From Candidatus Woesearchaeota archaeon (GTDB lineage Archaea; Nanobdellota; Nanobdellia; Woesearchaeales; UBA10216): a stretch of 54,596 bases of DNA. The stretch spans positions 1 through 54,596 of the forward strand of contig JACPBX010000006.1 in the NCBI GenBank assembly GCA_016180085.1, in the 5' to 3' direction. The notes under the pieces are model-generated. The model made no database searches and had not been told where the DNA came from. It saw only the letters and a list, made by a program, of their open reading frames with translations. Positions within the stretch are counted from its first letter, which is position 1. Every line of letters begins with the position of its first letter. This document shows, in pieces, positions 613-50,705 of the stretch. A program made the translations under genes and the position numbers.

Positions 613-660
613 CCCAAATCGACGGCAGTCGATTGGGCCCAGTCGCATCAGCGACTTGGG
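613..660. repeat. Double-hairpin palindromic element, copy 1 (intergenic)
   Basis: CCCAAATCG-ACGGCAGT-CGATTGGG CCCAGTCG-CATCAG-CGACTTGGG; same stems as 42604-42654 and 50611-50661. Confidence 0.85.
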
Positions 661-682
661 CTTTCCCAAAGGGTCACGACAC

Positions 683-716
683 ACCCTTATCTCCTTCTCA
701 CGCGGGGGATAAGGGT
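683..716. terminator. 12-bp stem-loop downstream of the minus-strand PIN gene; terminator or repeat
   Basis: ACCCTTATCTCC / GGGGATAAGGGT, about 40 nt past the stop at 758. Confidence 0.35.
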
Positions 717-757
717 TATTCTTATTTTGGGCAATGGCCCGTGTACATAGCGAGCAT

Positions 758-1183
758 TCATGATAGAATTCCTTTTGCCTTGAGTTCACTAACCAGCTCA
801 GAAGTTGTAAAAGCCTCTACGGAATTCTGCTTCTTGAAATGGTTATCGTTTGACCAGATAGGAATGCCGTTCATTGACAGTGAGAGTGCAAGGTACTCTG
901 TGTCGTCTTTATCTGGGATAAGGCTGTTGGCTTTATCCAGAAACATCTCAAACTGCTCCTTTGCAACGAAAGCAATTCTTCCCTTAATGATTCCTAGCAG
1001 ATTGTCAGTTTCACTTTCCGAAAGTCCTGTTACCTCGATTAGCCGTATCTTGTGTTCTTCTATCTCATCAGCCAAATGTTCGGGAGCGTGCAGTTTTAGA
1101 GCGTCAAGGAATATGATTTCCTTAGTCACTCCCTTGCCAGCTATTGCGGTGAACACTATCGAAGCGTCTATGACTAAGTCCAC
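758..1183 (-). CDS. PIN-domain (VapC-like) toxin
   Basis: N-terminal LVIDASIV, later DKDD.EYLAL and IWSNDNHF, giving the PIN acidic active-site pattern; directly abuts the upstream antitoxin gene. Confidence 0.85.
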   Translation of the reverse strand: MDLVIDASIVFTAIAGKGVTKEIIFLDALKLHAPEHLADEIEEHKIRLIEVTGLSESETDNLLGIIKGRIAFVAKEQFEMFLDKANSLIPDKDDTEYLALSLSMNGIPIWSNDNHFKKQNSVEAFTTSELVSELKAKGILS

Positions 1184-1423
1184 TCACCTCAGCTCCTTGT
1201 ACAGCCTCTTATATCTCTCATGCAGTGACTTGTTCACAGCCCTGCCAAGCTTTACAGCATCCTCCTCAGTCATCTTTGACTTTGAGACTATTGACTTGAA
1301 CAGCTTGTATTCCATCACCCTCTCCGATATTGCTTTCCTCGCTATCTCAGACCAGTTCATTTCCGGAAGCTCATCCATTTCCTTTTTCAAATCCTCCGGC
1401 ACAGCTAATGTTAATGTCGGCAT
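1184..1423 (-). CDS. RHH-type antitoxin (VapB/CopG-like)
   Basis: MPTLTLAVPEDLKKEM...NWSEIARKAI; GAGGTG RBS before ATG 1423; directly upstream of the PIN gene. Confidence 0.8.
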   Translation of the reverse strand: MPTLTLAVPEDLKKEMDELPEMNWSEIARKAISERVMEYKLFKSIVSKSKMTEEDAVKLGRAVNKSLHERYKRLYKELR

Positions 1424-1455
1424 GTTAACCACCTCATCAGTTAATACAGTTATCA

Positions 1456-1469
1456 CACATAATTATGTG
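1456..1469. promoter_or_regulatory. Perfect 14-bp palindrome CACATAATTATGTG, likely TA autoregulatory operator
   Basis: Lies between a TATA-like TTTATAA (1474-1480) and the antitoxin start. Confidence 0.55.
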
Positions 1470-1587
1470 CAACTTTATAAATCTTCCGCTCATGGACAAA
1501 GGCTCGTTGACATGGCTGTGTTACCGCGGCCCTCCGTCAAGGAGGAGGGTAAGGCAGCCGTGTCCGTGCCGTCCAAACAGCAGAGGC

Positions 1588-1798
1588 ACTCCGCCTTTGC
1601 CGCTGTTCCCTTATCCACTCCCTCAATTGCCAACACCAACGGCACCACAGTGAACGGTGCCTTCATTGCCAATGCGAGCATTGCAAGGGCAACCGACAAA
1701 CTCTTCACCAACGTCAACTTCAGCAACGAGAACGGTACATTTGAAGAAAACAGCACGTTCAAGTGGCTCAAGCGCACCCTTTACCAGCTGCAGAACCG
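1588..1798 (+). pseudogene. Fragment duplicating the 5' end of the giant gene (mature N-terminus, no signal peptide)
   Basis: DNA closely matches 3512-3722; peptide SAFAAVP...NGAFIANASIARATDKLFTN.NF..ENGTFEENSTFKWLKRTLYQ.QNR. Confidence 0.85.
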
Positions 1799-1863
1799 CG
1801 TTACAAGTGAGGCGGAACTATGAAGAAGTGTCTTTCCAGCATGTATGAGCACGTCATCAGTTG

Positions 1864-48510: not shown

Positions 48511-48544
48511 ACAGGCCAGGCAGGGTGAGTGGAGGGTGTGGTAA

Positions 48545-49363
48545 GTGAAGCTTGTCCTTGACGTGAGAAAATCTGTTGAAGCTAATGCTGCTGTTTACTT
48601 TGAAAAGGCAAAAAAAGCCAGGAAAAAGCTTGAGGGTGCAAAAGCAGCCCTGGAAAGGATGCAGCAGAAGCTGCAGCAGCTGGTTTTGGAAAGGGAAGAA
48701 GCCGGGAAAAGGATTGCGGCTACGGCAGAGGACAAGGGGAAGATGGCTGCGCGGGCATTTCAAAAAGCCTGGTATGAGAAATTCAGGTGGTTTGTAAGCT
48801 CAGAGGGCTTCCTCTGCATTGGAGGGAGGGATGCGACCACAAATGAGATAATAATTAAAAAGCATGCTGAAAAGGATGACATTGTGTTCCACACAGAGCT
48901 TGCCGGCTCGCCTTTTTTTGTCGTTAAGCTTGGCAGCAACGCTTCAGCTTCGGTAATCAACGCAAGCATTGAGGAAGCTGCCATTGCAACTGCAAGCTAC
49001 TCCAGGGCATGGAAGGCAGGCCTCCAGTCTGTTGACGTCTATTGGGTAAGGCCTGAACAGGTGACAAAGGAGGCAAAGGCTGGCGAATACCTCGTCAAAG
49101 GTGCCTTTATGATTTACGGGAAAAAAAATTATGTTCCTGCCCGGATTGGGCTTGCCATTGGCGTAACTTCAGACGGAAGAATAATGGGCGGGCCGGCATC
49201 TGCCATTTCAAAAAACTGCGCTAAGCAGGTAAAAATCCTGCAGGGGGGCAACAAGCCAAGCGATGCAGCAAAAAAAATAATAAAAATTCTGGGTCTCAGC
49301 AGCAGCTACCTTGACGAAATAATAAGGGCGATGCCTGCCGGAGAATGCAAAGTGGTTGCCTGA
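48545..49363 (+). CDS. NFACT RNA-binding domain protein (short Rqc2/RqcH-like, DUF814)
   Basis: NAAVYFEKAKK, WYEKFRWFVSSEGFLCIGGRDATTNE, FHTELAGSP, GAFMIYGKKN. Confidence 0.85.
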   Translation: MKLVLDVRKSVEANAAVYFEKAKKARKKLEGAKAALERMQQKLQQLVLEREEAGKRIAATAEDKGKMAARAFQKAWYEKFRWFVSSEGFLCIGGRDATTNEIIIKKHAEKDDIVFHTELAGSPFFVVKLGSNASASVINASIEEAAIATASYSRAWKAGLQSVDVYWVRPEQVTKEAKAGEYLVKGAFMIYGKKNYVPARIGLAIGVTSDGRIMGGPASAISKNCAKQVKILQGGNKPSDAAKKIIKILGLSSSYLDEIIRAMPAGECKVVA

Positions 49364-50176
49364 TTACTGGCTGCTGCTACTATCGCTACTATCTGTTGTT
49401 GCGCTGTTACCCTGCAGTCCTTGCAGCCCTTCCTTAAGCATCCCTTCCCTCAGTATTATGTCTATCTCGCCAAAGTTCTCCTGCTGCAGCAGGTCAAGTT
49501 TCCTGTAGTCAACGTTTGCAAGATGGAGGAGAGGCATGAACGTGAGAATCTTTGCTTCCTTCGTTGCGTCCTTTGGCAGCAGCTGCGTGAAAGTCAGCTT
49601 TCTGCTTGCCTTGAACATGCTGGTGACCTTGTCGTATACCTCCCCTATGAGCTTTCCCATGTCTGTTTTTCTTTTTGGCACTTCCATTGTCACATGCGGC
49701 ATCCTTCTTGCTACCCTCCTGTCCCTTACTTCAAGTGCCTTCTGCAGCGATATGACCAGGTCATAGATAGAAACCTTCCTCTTCCTGGGCTGGGGCGTCC
49801 TCGGCAGCAGCGGCTGCGCCTCATATTCGCCATATTCGCCTTTGCCGTAGCTGTCGAGCTCCTCATAAAAGCCCTCGTAGGTGCTTTCCTCATCCTGGGG
49901 CGTCATGAGCCTGTCAAGCTCTGCCATTTCCTCGCCGACAAGGAGGTTTGACTTTATTTTCAGCAGTATGGAAGCTGCCAGCACCATCTTTCCCGAAACG
50001 CGAAAGTCAAGCTCCTTGAGCTTCTTGAGCATCTGGACATACCTCTTCGTCAGGACAGAAACATCAACATCCCATGGGTCCATCTGCTCGCTCTTGACAA
50101 GCTCGTAAATCATGCTCCTCCACGTGACCTCATTGCTTTCCTTGCCCAGAACTATCTGCATTATGCGGTCTTCCAT
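49364..50176 (-). CDS. scpA: Segregation and condensation protein A (SMC kleisin)
   Basis: MDPWDVDV, SGKMVLAASILLKIKS, RKVSIYDLV..L..AL, TFMPLLHL, Q.ENFGEI. Confidence 0.85.
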   Translation of the reverse strand: MEDRIMQIVLGKESNEVTWRSMIYELVKSEQMDPWDVDVSVLTKRYVQMLKKLKELDFRVSGKMVLAASILLKIKSNLLVGEEMAELDRLMTPQDEESTYEGFYEELDSYGKGEYGEYEAQPLLPRTPQPRKRKVSIYDLVISLQKALEVRDRRVARRMPHVTMEVPKRKTDMGKLIGEVYDKVTSMFKASRKLTFTQLLPKDATKEAKILTFMPLLHLANVDYRKLDLLQQENFGEIDIILREGMLKEGLQGLQGNSATTDSSDSSSSQ

Positions 50177-50246
50177 GCCCTGTTTTTCCTCGTTGCAGCT
50201 ATTTAAATGTTGCTACGTCTCCCGTCGCTGCGGCTATTACGGAAAC

Positions 50247-50253
50247 TTTATAA
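50247..50253 (+). promoter_or_regulatory. TATA box of tRNA-Val
   Basis: GGAAAC-TTTATAA about 26 nt upstream of the tRNA 5' end. Confidence 0.6.
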
Positions 50254-50278
50254 GCGGTTTTCAAATTGCAGCCTTTGC

Positions 50279-50465
50279 GGGCCCATGGTCTAGTGGTTAA
50301 CTTTCCAGTTTGAACTGAGAAGTCCACAGATGACGTCTCCCTTACATGCACAGCTAGGCTGGGCGTCCAGCGCAACTGTGCTGAGAACGGAGAAGGCCGC
50401 CAGTTCGAATGTTGGCGCGGGAGCGGCAACGCACCAAGCGCAGCGCGGATGTCTGGCTGGGCCCA
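50279..50465 (+). tRNA. tRNA-Val(TAC) with three introns (50299-50329, 50347-50387, 50410-50451)
   Basis: Spliced product GGGCCCA-TG-GTCT-AGTGGTTA-TGAC-G-TCTCC-CT-TAC-AC-GGAGA-AGGCC-GCCAG-TTCGAAT-CTGGC-TGGGCCC-A; BHB helices GTGG/CCAC, CTTA/TGAG, TTCG/CGGA. Confidence 0.9.
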
Positions 50466-50505
50466 CCTTTTTTTCCAAAACATTTAAAATACAGTCTTTT
50501 ATCGT

Positions 50506-50539
50506 TTTTTGATAAACCTTTTTCGCTAAAAAGGTTTTG
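50506..50539. repeat. 34-bp hairpin repeat, copy 1 (abuts the tRNA-Gly 5' end)
   Basis: TTTTTGATAAACCTTTTTCGCTAAAAAGGTTTTG; 33 of 34 identical to 52044-52077. Confidence 0.8.
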
Positions 50540-50705
50540 CGACGGTGGTCTAGTGGTATGACACGACCTTGCCAAAACCCTTTTTGCTTCGGCAAAAAGC
50601 GTTTACGGAACCCAAATCGTGCAATGCACGATTGGGCCCAGTCGGCTGACGCCGACTTGGGAACGCAATAAGGTCGTTACCCGGGTTCGAATCCCGGCCG
50701 TCGCA
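50539..50705 (+). tRNA. tRNA-Gly(GCC) with a 96-nt intron at 37/38 (50575-50670)
   Basis: GCGACGG/CCGTCGC acceptor stem, CGACC-TT-GCC-AA-GGTCG anticodon arm, TTCGAAT T-loop; BHB TTGC/GCAA with CAA and TAA bulges. Confidence 0.92.
50611..50661. repeat. Double-hairpin palindromic element, copy 3 (inside the tRNA-Gly intron)
   Basis: CCCAAATCG-TGCAATGCA-CGATTGGG CCCAGTCG-GCTGACGC-CGACTTGGG, 51 nt. Confidence 0.85.

What the first reader, a model, noticed from the sequence alone, without database searches (positions are those of the whole stretch)
613..50661. One double-hairpin element in three contexts: intergenic, in frame in an intein, and in a tRNA intron
Seen: consensus CCCAA(A/G)TCG-loop-CGA(C/T)TGGG|CCCAGTCG-loop-CGACTTGGG at 613-660, 42604-42654 and 50611-50661. 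Stems are conserved while the loop-proximal bases change in pairs (AC..GT, TGC..GCA; C..G, AC..GT, GC..GC), which is covariation. With these ends the lengths are 48, 51 and 51 nt, all multiples of 3; removing copy 2 leaves the intein in frame (GNFK-R-ASP). Known: REP and Rickettsia palindromic elements insert into non-coding RNA and in frame into proteins, and REPs are spread by HUH/RAYT transposases. Inference: an undescribed archaeal palindromic element family that colonises tolerant sites and may contribute to tRNA intron sequence.
Basis: partly seen in the sequence, partly recalled or inferred. Interest (0 to 1): 0.85.

Follow-up and report, generated by a model that had tools for sequence, protein, structure and literature searches.

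The report
Mobile double-hairpin repeat in Woesearchaeota
The three look-alike stretches are copies of a roughly 50-base, two-hairpin DNA repeat that has recently spread through one group of tiny groundwater archaea, landing without leaving a footprint in tRNA introns, in another small hairpin repeat and in frame inside protein genes, and none of the transposase families I searched for accounts for its movement.

Summary
All three copies are at the stated coordinates (0 expected by chance). They belong to a family of about 29 loci in this ~1 Mb Woesearchaeota genome, present in all 9 congeners (about 8-65 copies each) and in 5 of 14 other-genus genomes of the family. No exact copy was found in viral contigs.

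The two bulged hairpins covary strongly. Pairing is almost purely Watson-Crick, and G·T is as rare as A·C, so the signal looks DNA-level rather than RNA-selected.

All three window copies have empty orthologous sites. Eleven clean filled/empty junctions show exact insertion with no target duplication, between a purine run (RAA) and a purine. About 40% of copies sit in the A-run of a separate 33-nt hairpin module that flanks tRNA genes and starts tRNA introns; others are nested in loops of other copies.

Copies inside genes are almost all 48 or 51 nt and all in sense orientation, so they are probably translated.

The RAYT/IS200 idea is not supported: Y1, IS110, RT, TnpB and serine-recombinase genes are absent or do not track the element.

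Copy 2's host gene carries a 7-nt frameshifting deletion.

The scan had already noted this family on other DNA of this genome.

The parts
613..660 (.). Copy 1 of the double hairpin (48 nt), nested in a 33-nt hairpin module. By flank it is oriented on the - strand (AAAG^...^GGTC). By its own asymmetry it is one of the minority of flipped copies.
   Evidence: Empty orthologous module in G001; G005 is filled at the same point with different variable stems.
602..682 (+). Host 33-nt module (TTGGATTGACC ... CTTTCCCAAAGGGTCACG), split by copy 1 at GACC^CTTT.
   Evidence: G001 has GATTGACC^CTTTAGAAAAGGGTCACG uninterrupted.
42604..42654 (+). Copy 2 (51 nt), in frame in the intein. It encodes about 17 residues (TQVVQGTTGPSRQRSTW) between the N-terminal splicing blocks and the LAGLIDADG domain.
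   Evidence: G004, G005 and G007 have the same intein minus exactly 51 nt.
42114..43493 (+). LAGLIDADG intein (approximate limits) of a PilB/T2SSE-type ATPase gene, the host of copy 2.
   Evidence: Pfam Intein_splicing, LAGLIDADG_3 and PilB3_C. The extein motif QNPDYVVVGEVRG...LFQGMA|S...HN|SGHP was read.
50611..50661 (+). Copy 3 (51 nt), inside the tRNA-Gly(GCC) intron, in sense orientation.
   Evidence: G001 has the same intron without it (..CGGAA^AGCGCAATA). G005 has an independent copy 12 nt upstream in the same intron.
50539..50706 (+). tRNA-Gly(GCC) gene. Exons are about 50539-50574 and 50671-50706; the 96-nt intron is at or near position 37/38.
   Evidence: ARAGORN with introns allowed. 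Default ARAGORN and Rfam gathering thresholds miss it.

Best explanation
The element is a non-autonomous, DNA-level mobile repeat. It is a 46-52-nt unit of two adjacent hairpins, each with a 4-bp foot, one conserved bulged base (A in the first, T in the second), a conserved 4-bp stem and a variable tip. It is inserted exactly, without target duplication, just 3' of a short purine run (RAA^R). It prefers A-runs that are themselves part of hairpins: the 33-nt tRNA-associated module, another hairpin module, and loops of other copies. Shown: recent gain or loss at orthologous sites, exact junctions, the target preference, nesting, and a filter for frame-preserving lengths in genes. Inferred: the hairpins are recognised as single-stranded DNA by an enzyme acting in trans, in the manner of IS200/IS605-type or REP elements, but by a protein that is none of the transposase families I searched for. 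Once inserted, the element is passive. In tRNA introns it is removed with the intron, and in genes it stays in the mRNA and is translated as a 16-17-residue loop.
For: Family size and patchy, lineage-restricted spread with 8-fold copy-number differences among congeners. Eleven clean filled/empty junctions with 0-bp duplication, A (9 of 11) or AAAG (2 of 11) at the 5' side and a purine at +1 in all 11. None of the 11 site pairs found by flank comparison between G000 and G007 is filled in both genomes. One hotspot is filled by copies with unrelated variable stems in G000 and G005. In 59 copies oriented by the element's own asymmetry, 51 are preceded by AAA, GAA or AAG. Roughly 40% of 122 copies lie in the 33-nt module (counted by eye). 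Nested copies follow AAA in loops. Of 1,376 pair cells, 96.1% are Watson-Crick, with G·T 13 versus A·C 9, and both strands fold equally well. Copies crossed by long open frames: 16 of 17 have lengths divisible by 3, versus 35 of 60 elsewhere (p = 0.004). The one exception is 51 nt plus a target G. Pfam domains continue in frame across copies in a GT4, a TrxB-like protein, aIF5B, a class-V aminotransferase, a class-I aaRS and an SNase.
Against: No mobilising enzyme was found. Y1/HUH genes do not track the element. IS110 and RT were not detected in the five copy-richest genomes. TnpB occurs in two of them and a serine recombinase in one, and only a Xer-like tyrosine recombinase is common. No autonomous parent with split ends was found, and there are no exact copies in viral contigs. 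The orientation test against GC skew or gene direction is inconclusive. Variable tips differ between copies far more than simple copying predicts. All genomes are MAGs 67-97% complete, so absences are soft.
Confidence: 0.62

Rival explanations
1. The element is a REP/REPIN-type element spread by a RAYT or IS200-type Y1 HUH transposase.
For: The architecture (paired bulged hairpins), the lack of target duplication, and insertion 3' of a short target all resemble IS200/IS605 and REP biology. Y1 genes exist in some family members.
Against: Y1_Tnp was not detected in G000, G001, G004, G007, G008, G012 or G014, although these hold about 15-65 copies each. It is present in element-free G011, G020 and G021. 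No element lies next to any Y1 gene.
Confidence: 0.08
2. The element is a selected structured RNA motif, for example a protein-binding or folding aid in pre-tRNA introns and leaders, and its spread reflects function.
For: Strong structural conservation with compensatory changes. Many copies lie in transcribed tRNA introns and flanks, in sense orientation there. Loops are A-rich on one strand (A:T about 2:1).
Against: G·U pairs are not enriched over A·C. Copies occur in protein genes, intergenic DNA and inside each other. Each of the 11 G000/G007 site pairs is filled in only one of the two genomes. The same tRNA-Gly works intronless in G003, G004 and G013. No Rfam family matches.
Confidence: 0.1
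3. The element is an RNA-level mobile intron. It is cut out of any transcript by the tRNA splicing endonuclease and RtcB (compare SOS splicing of transposons, PMC12779559) and spreads through RNA.
For: All 17 gene-embedded copies are in sense orientation, where purine-run targets would predict about 69% (P about 0.002). All intron copies seen are also in sense orientation. One copy sits alone in a T-loop-like site on contig C30.
Against: Gene-embedded copies are restricted to lengths divisible by 3, which excision from the mRNA would make unnecessary. By inspection the element's ends do not form a bulge-helix-bulge. No reverse transcriptase was detected in five genomes. No complete tRNA could be rebuilt at C30.
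Confidence: 0.07
4. There is no dedicated enzyme. Copies spread and are homogenised by recombination, gene conversion and template switching between hairpin repeats, and quasipalindrome correction keeps the stems perfect.
For: Purely Watson-Crick compensation. Hairpin-1 and hairpin-2 variants recombine in different combinations. One hotspot carries unrelated variants in different genomes. There is strong clustering in one repeat module.
Against: Exact insertions into unique sites that share no homology beyond an A-run (an intein, an aaRS, a GT4) are hard to obtain by recombination alone. The two hairpins are never found singly.
Confidence: 0.13

Closest known systems
REP doublets / REPINs with RAYT transposases (Bertels & Rainey 2011, PMC3116915)
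   Same: Short, multicopy, non-autonomous units made of two inverted palindromic halves that fold in single-stranded DNA. Doublets, not singlets, are the replicating unit. Copy number varies between relatives.
   Different: Here the two halves are separate abutting hairpins with no spacer. Copies are not confined to extragenic space. No RAYT gene tracks them. The host is a DPANN archaeon.
Rickettsia palindromic elements (reviewed in PMC10969869)
   Same: Palindromic repeats inserted in frame into unrelated, often essential protein genes as well as non-coding RNA and spacers.
   Different: RPEs are about 100-150 bp and bacterial. This element is 46-52 nt, has a defined two-hairpin architecture, and has a strong preference for tRNA-associated hairpin modules.
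IS200/IS605 family and its miniature derivatives (from general knowledge of the family)
   Same: No terminal inverted repeats in the classical sense, no target duplication, insertion just 3' of a short target, and hairpins with an extrahelical base as recognition elements.
   Different: The hairpin feet coincide with the element ends, the target is a loose purine run, and the Y1 transposase is missing.
Transposed BHB introns of Thermoproteales tRNA genes (Fujishima et al. 2010, known to me and named in earlier scan notes; paper not read here)
   Same: Related sequences are found in introns of different tRNA genes and positions, implying movement.
   Different: This element is a passenger inside introns, and it also lands in proteins and spacers. 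It does not itself carry the splice motif.
Integron attC sites (general knowledge)
   Same: The structure and the extrahelical bases are conserved while the hairpin tips vary freely. Recognition is of folded single-stranded DNA.
   Different: There are no R-box (GTTRRRY) sequences, no cassettes, and no integron integrase context.

Membership tests
REP/REPIN | Short multicopy palindromic unit, replicating as an inverted doublet | tested here: met
   About 29 loci in this genome. The two hairpins are never found singly in five genomes.
REP/REPIN | A RAYT (Y1 HUH) gene in the same genome, usually flanked by REPs | tested here: not met
   PF01797 not detected in G000 or in the copy-rich relatives, and no element lies next to any Y1 gene.
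REP/REPIN | Extragenic location | tested here: not met
   In-frame copies lie inside Pfam domains or between two domains of one protein, and in tRNA introns.
IS200/IS605-type miniature element | No target-site duplication, and insertion 3' of a short target | tested here: met
   11 of 11 clean junctions, all RAA^R.
IS200/IS605-type miniature element | Orientation tied to the lagging-strand template | tested here: inconclusive
   GC skew 37 vs 21 (p = 0.048), confounded with gene direction 35 vs 23. The contigs have no known replication origin.
IS200/IS605-type miniature element | Cognate TnpA (Y1), or at least TnpB-bearing relatives with the same ends | tested here: not met
Classical MITE | Terminal inverted repeats plus target-site duplication | tested here: not met
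   The outer 9-nt arms are complementary, but there is no duplication at any junction.
Rickettsia palindromic elements | In-frame insertion into protein genes | tested here: met
Rickettsia palindromic elements | Element of about 100-150 bp in Rickettsia lineages | tested here: not met
   The element is 46-52 nt, and exact copies were found only in Woesearchaeota MAGs.
Archaeal BHB intron | Bulge-helix-bulge motif formed at the element's own ends | tested here: inconclusive
   By inspection the ends form hairpin feet with 1-nt bulges, not two 3-nt bulges 4 bp apart. In tRNA-Gly a plausible BHB (TTGC/GCAA helix with bulges CA|A and TA|A) lies outside the element.
Any Rfam family | Match at the gathering threshold | tested here: not met
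   No match in the whole window.

The most novel reading that the evidence does not exclude
The element is moved by a so far unrecognised, non-HUH enzyme or host pathway that reads bulged DNA hairpins and inserts into exposed purine runs of other hairpins, possibly on the non-template strand of transcribed DNA. With the 33-nt module it would then be a working source of new tRNA intron sequence and of new protein loops in DPANN archaea.
Probability: 0.25. Interest if true: 0.8.

Novelty: new variant of a known kind. Interest (0 to 1): 0.62.

Why it matters
Archaeal tRNA introns are numerous and oddly placed in some lineages, and how they arise and grow is an open question. Here closely related genomes capture the steps for one gene: no intron, an intron, and an intron enlarged by a mobile hairpin unit. 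They also show the same unit entering essential proteins in frame. The element behaves like bacterial REP/RPE repeats, yet none of the transposase families tested tracks it. That makes these small genomes a tractable place to look for a new way of moving DNA. It also warns that perfect compensatory stems are not enough to call a functional RNA.

Tried and rejected
1. Default ARAGORN and Rfam gathering thresholds find nothing in the window. The tRNA needs intron-aware settings.
2. My first gapped pattern was mistyped and found nothing. It was redone.
3. RAYT/IS200, TnpB, IS110, RT and serine recombinase are absent or do not correlate with the element. The Y2_Tnp search is uninformative because the control did not ring. 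The tyrosine recombinase found is a single, widespread Xer-like gene.
4. The two copies about 0.7 kb from a tnpB gene in G001 turned out to lie inside an intron-bearing tRNA gene.
5. There are no isolated left or right hairpins, so there is no visible autonomous parent.
6. There are no exact copies in viral contigs.
7. The C30 T-loop copy could not be placed in a complete tRNA, with or without the element.
8. A stop-free frame alone was too lenient a test of coding context. I replaced it with Pfam evidence and stricter thresholds.
9. My automatic module classifier under-counted, so the 40% figure rests on reading the flanks.
10. Tests of orientation against gene direction and GC skew were inconclusive.
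11. GNRA or UUCG tetraloops are not dominant in the loops.
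Full report
OBSERVATION

The full two-hairpin pattern hits these three loci in the window and none of 100 dinucleotide-preserving shuffles. Each copy folds, on either strand, into two adjacent hairpins. The first has a bulged A in its 5' arm and the second a bulged T in its 3' arm. With DNA parameters the z-scores are -5.7 to -6.7, and no shuffle is as stable.

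A REAL FAMILY

The window is one whole contig (C29) of a 998,598-bp, 45-contig genome with 48.7% G+C.
- A regular expression and then a covariance model built from 19 copies find about 29 loci in this genome.
- The model finds the element in all 9 genomes of the same genus. Strand-match counts of 16 to 127 correspond to roughly 8-65 copies per genome.
- It also finds the element in 5 of 14 genomes from other genera of the family, and in none of 16 genomes from other families of the order.
- An exact-pattern scan of one genome per species for 185,579 species hit only Candidatus Woesearchaeota groundwater MAGs, plus co-assembled MAGs labelled Methanosarcinales. A scan of 2.9 million viral contigs hit nothing.

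STRUCTURE AND WHAT THE COVARIATION MEANS

On the 19 copies, 96.9% of cells pair, and 11 of 21 pairs show changes on both sides. Sliding the 3' partner by 1-3 columns drops pairing to 26-41%. Feet change in step within a hairpin (CCCA/TGGG to CACA/TGTG or CGCA/TGCG) and independently between the two hairpins. So the conserved feature is two hairpins, not the central 16-bp palindrome and not outer-outer pairing.

On 67 simple copies (1,376 pair cells), 96.1% are Watson-Crick. G·T (13 cells) is no commoner than A·C (9 cells) or other mismatches (31 cells). An RNA under selection normally tolerates G·U on its own strand. Here both strands are equally perfect. This fits recognition as DNA hairpins, or templated correction of quasipalindromes (inference), better than a functional RNA.

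The element does have a polarity:
- Among copies with exactly one A-type hairpin (CCCAAATCG), that hairpin lies next to the A-rich flank in 59 and away from it in 9.
- In those 59 copies the upstream trinucleotide is AAA, GAA or AAG in 51.
- Loops are A-rich, with A:T about 2:1.

A second subfamily (TGCAAATCGG.../CACATTCCGC...) keeps the same architecture and bulges with different stems.

THE THREE WINDOW COPIES ARE INSERTIONS

Copy 3. tRNA-Gly(GCC) occurs in three states:
- It is intronless in G003, G004 and G013.
- It has an intron without the element in G001, G007, G008 and G009.
- It has an intron with the element in G000.
The junctions are G000 ...CGGAA[51 nt]AACGCAATA and G001 ...CGGAA^AGCGCAATA. 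G005 carries an independent copy 12 nt upstream in the same intron: GCGAAA[51 nt]AAAGCG, against G008 GCGAAA^AAAGCG. So the element enlarged an existing intron. It did not create it.

Copy 2. G004, G005 and G007 have the same intein exactly 51 nt shorter. G007 reads TTCAAGA^GGGCAAG, which encodes ..GNFKRASP.., and G000 reads TTCAAAA[51 nt]GGGCAAG. The host PilB/T2SSE-type ATPase gene is one 995-residue frame in G005 and G007. In G000 it has lost 7 nt (AACATTC) near position 42037, which splits it into two frames. This host is therefore probably a pseudogene, unless the deletion is an assembly error.

Copy 1. It lies between GACC and CTTT of a 33-nt module (GTTTTGGATTGACC-AT hairpin-GGTCACG). 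That module sits directly in front of a small hairpin conserved in five genomes (window about 680-718). G001 has the module uninterrupted. G005 is filled at the same point, but with entirely different variable stems. G003 has no module at all.

GENERAL INSERTION RULES

I fetched the whole of G007 and compared flanks in both directions. This located 11 orthologous site pairs, and in every one the element is present in only one genome. One older copy does appear to be shared: G000 C3:6079 matches the outer copy into which a G007 copy is nested.

Together with the pairs above, there are 11 clean junctions. All are exact and none has a target duplication. The base 5' of the element is A in nine junctions, and the flank is AAAG in the other two. 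The base 3' of the element is a purine in all eleven. A copy I had measured as 52 nt is 51 nt plus a G that belongs to the target.

Across 122 unique copies the lengths are 46-52 nt (51 nt: 47 copies; 48 nt: 32; 50 nt: 22).

By reading the flanks, about 40% of copies lie in the A-run of the 33-nt module, at variable points such as GAA^AAAGG or AAAA^GGTC. The roughly 35-40 real modules in this genome total about 0.15% of its DNA, while the genome holds about 13,000 A4/T4 runs. The preference is therefore for A-runs within hairpins. Other copies follow AAA in the loops of other copies, or sit in a second hairpin module (GGGTTGATAAGGGC...GCCCTTATTGC). The module itself was noted earlier by this scan (e1-5774427). 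I found it independently and confirm two things: it abuts tRNA position +1 (Rfam tRNA match starting 5 nt after the element on contig C35), and its reverse complement begins tRNA introns.

COPIES INSIDE GENES

Pfam domains continue in one frame across copies in a GT4 glycosyltransferase, a TrxB-like reductase, aIF5B and a class-V aminotransferase of this genome. The same holds for a class-I aminoacyl-tRNA synthetase and an SNase of G007 and a glycosyltransferase of G001.

Of 17 copies crossed by an open frame of at least 80 codons on each side, 16 have a length divisible by 3, against 35 of 60 in non-coding contexts (Fisher p = 0.004). The exception is the 51+G case. This filter would be unnecessary if the element were spliced from mRNA, so I infer that it is translated.

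All 17 are in sense orientation. Purine-run targets are only 2.2-fold commoner on the sense strand, so target availability alone gives P of about 0.002. The excess could come from selection against insertions in hydrophobic T-rich codon runs, or from a strand-specific insertion step. I cannot separate these.

WHAT MOVES IT

The RAYT/IS200 proposal fails its key test:
- Y1_Tnp was not detected in this genome or in G001, G004, G007, G008, G012 and G014, all of which carry the element.
- It is present in element-free G011, G020 and G021.
- It is never next to an element.

Among the five copy-richest genomes, IS110-type transposase and reverse transcriptase were not detected in any. TnpB occurs in two and a serine recombinase in one. 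A single Xer-like tyrosine recombinase occurs in four. The Y2 search was uninformative. No isolated left or right hairpin exists in five genomes, so no split-end parent is visible. All these genomes are incomplete MAGs, so the absences are provisional.

Orientation against local gene direction (35:23) and against GC skew (37:21) is inconclusive.

COMPARISON WITH KNOWN SYSTEMS

The element works most like REP doublets/REPINs (PMC3116915) and IS200/IS605-type miniature elements: hairpins with an extrahelical base, no duplication, and insertion 3' of a short target. Its in-frame habit matches Rickettsia palindromic elements (PMC10969869). It fails the defining enzyme test for the first two. It differs from RPEs in size and host, and from classical MITEs in lacking a target duplication. 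I found no description of such an element in DPANN archaea in the library searched.

EARLIER SCAN NOTES

This scan had already flagged the same family on another piece of this genome (e1-5774436) and similar elements in other DPANN genomes (e1-4667810, e1-5041553). My tests agree with those notes. They add junction-level rules, the nesting in the 33-nt module, the strand-symmetric pairing statistic, the length filter in genes and a wider enzyme survey.

VERDICT

The element is a new variant of a known kind of mobile palindromic repeat, and its mobilising activity is unknown.

Noticed in passing
window 41960-42100 (break near 42037): The PilB/T2SSE-type ATPase gene that hosts the intein has a 7-nt deletion (AACATTC) relative to G004, G005 and G007, where it is one 995-residue frame. 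In this genome it is split into ORFs 40915-42063 and 42093-43961. It is a probable pseudogene or an assembly error.
   Followed up: partly
window 680-718: The hairpin ACACACCCTTATCTCCTTCTCACGCGGGGGATAAGGGT is nearly identical in five congeners. In four of them a 33-nt module immediately precedes it, as at tRNA 5' ends (G003 has no module). It is a possible small RNA gene and is single-copy in this genome.
   Followed up: partly
window 50503-50538 and 52041-52076: Two uninterrupted 33-nt modules (GTTTTTGATAAACC-TTTTTCGCYAAAAA-GGTTTT). The first ends exactly at tRNA-Gly position +1. The second lies just upstream of an ATG. The T-rich left part sits about 22-33 nt upstream of the RNA start, so a promoter role should be considered.
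   Followed up: no
window 39172-39216 (- strand): A copy of a different hairpin module (GGGTTGATAAGGGC-loop-GCCCTTATTGC) with about 8 copies in the genome. Two other copies of it (C35:20066, C7 in trxB) carry a double hairpin.
   Followed up: no
L103 (G005:C10), L105 (G001:C69), L108 (G009:C30): Two or three 33-nt modules stand in tandem upstream of the conserved hairpin in G001, G005 and G009, where G000 has one and G003 none. So the module itself is gained and lost.
   Followed up: partly
L044 (G005:C4 about 13540-13900), L046 (G008:C4), L062 (G007:C15): The same tRNA-Gly(GCC) has an extra T-loop intron in G005 (with a degenerate double hairpin), in G008 (with a 33-nt module) and in G007 (a short one), but none in G000. 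Intron turnover between congeners is very fast.
   Followed up: partly
G000 C25:10183-10240, C39:23074-23131, C2:722-779, C7:1566-1621: A second double-hairpin subfamily (TGCAAATCGG.../CACATTCCGC...). In aIF5B, a class-V aminotransferase and an unannotated ORF on C2 its copies encode a similar peptide (HNSAxxGMCNRxSxDLQ). The C7 copy lies in frame in a TrxB-like gene with a different peptide.
   Followed up: partly
L009 (G000 C30:2071-2121): A copy sits exactly inside a T-loop-like sequence (CCGGGTTCAAG^TCCCGG followed by an acceptor-like 3' end). No complete tRNA could be reconstructed, with or without it. G007 has the uninterrupted T arm.
   Followed up: partly
L018 (G000 C41:25780-25900): Behind a tRNA-Thr 3' end, a copy is followed by a near-duplicate of the tRNA's last bases (CCCCGCG[G/A]CGGCCC).
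   Followed up: no
window 50279-50465: An earlier first-stage note reports a tRNA-Val(TAC) with three introns just upstream of tRNA-Gly. I only saw its 3' end as a weak motif match.
   Followed up: no
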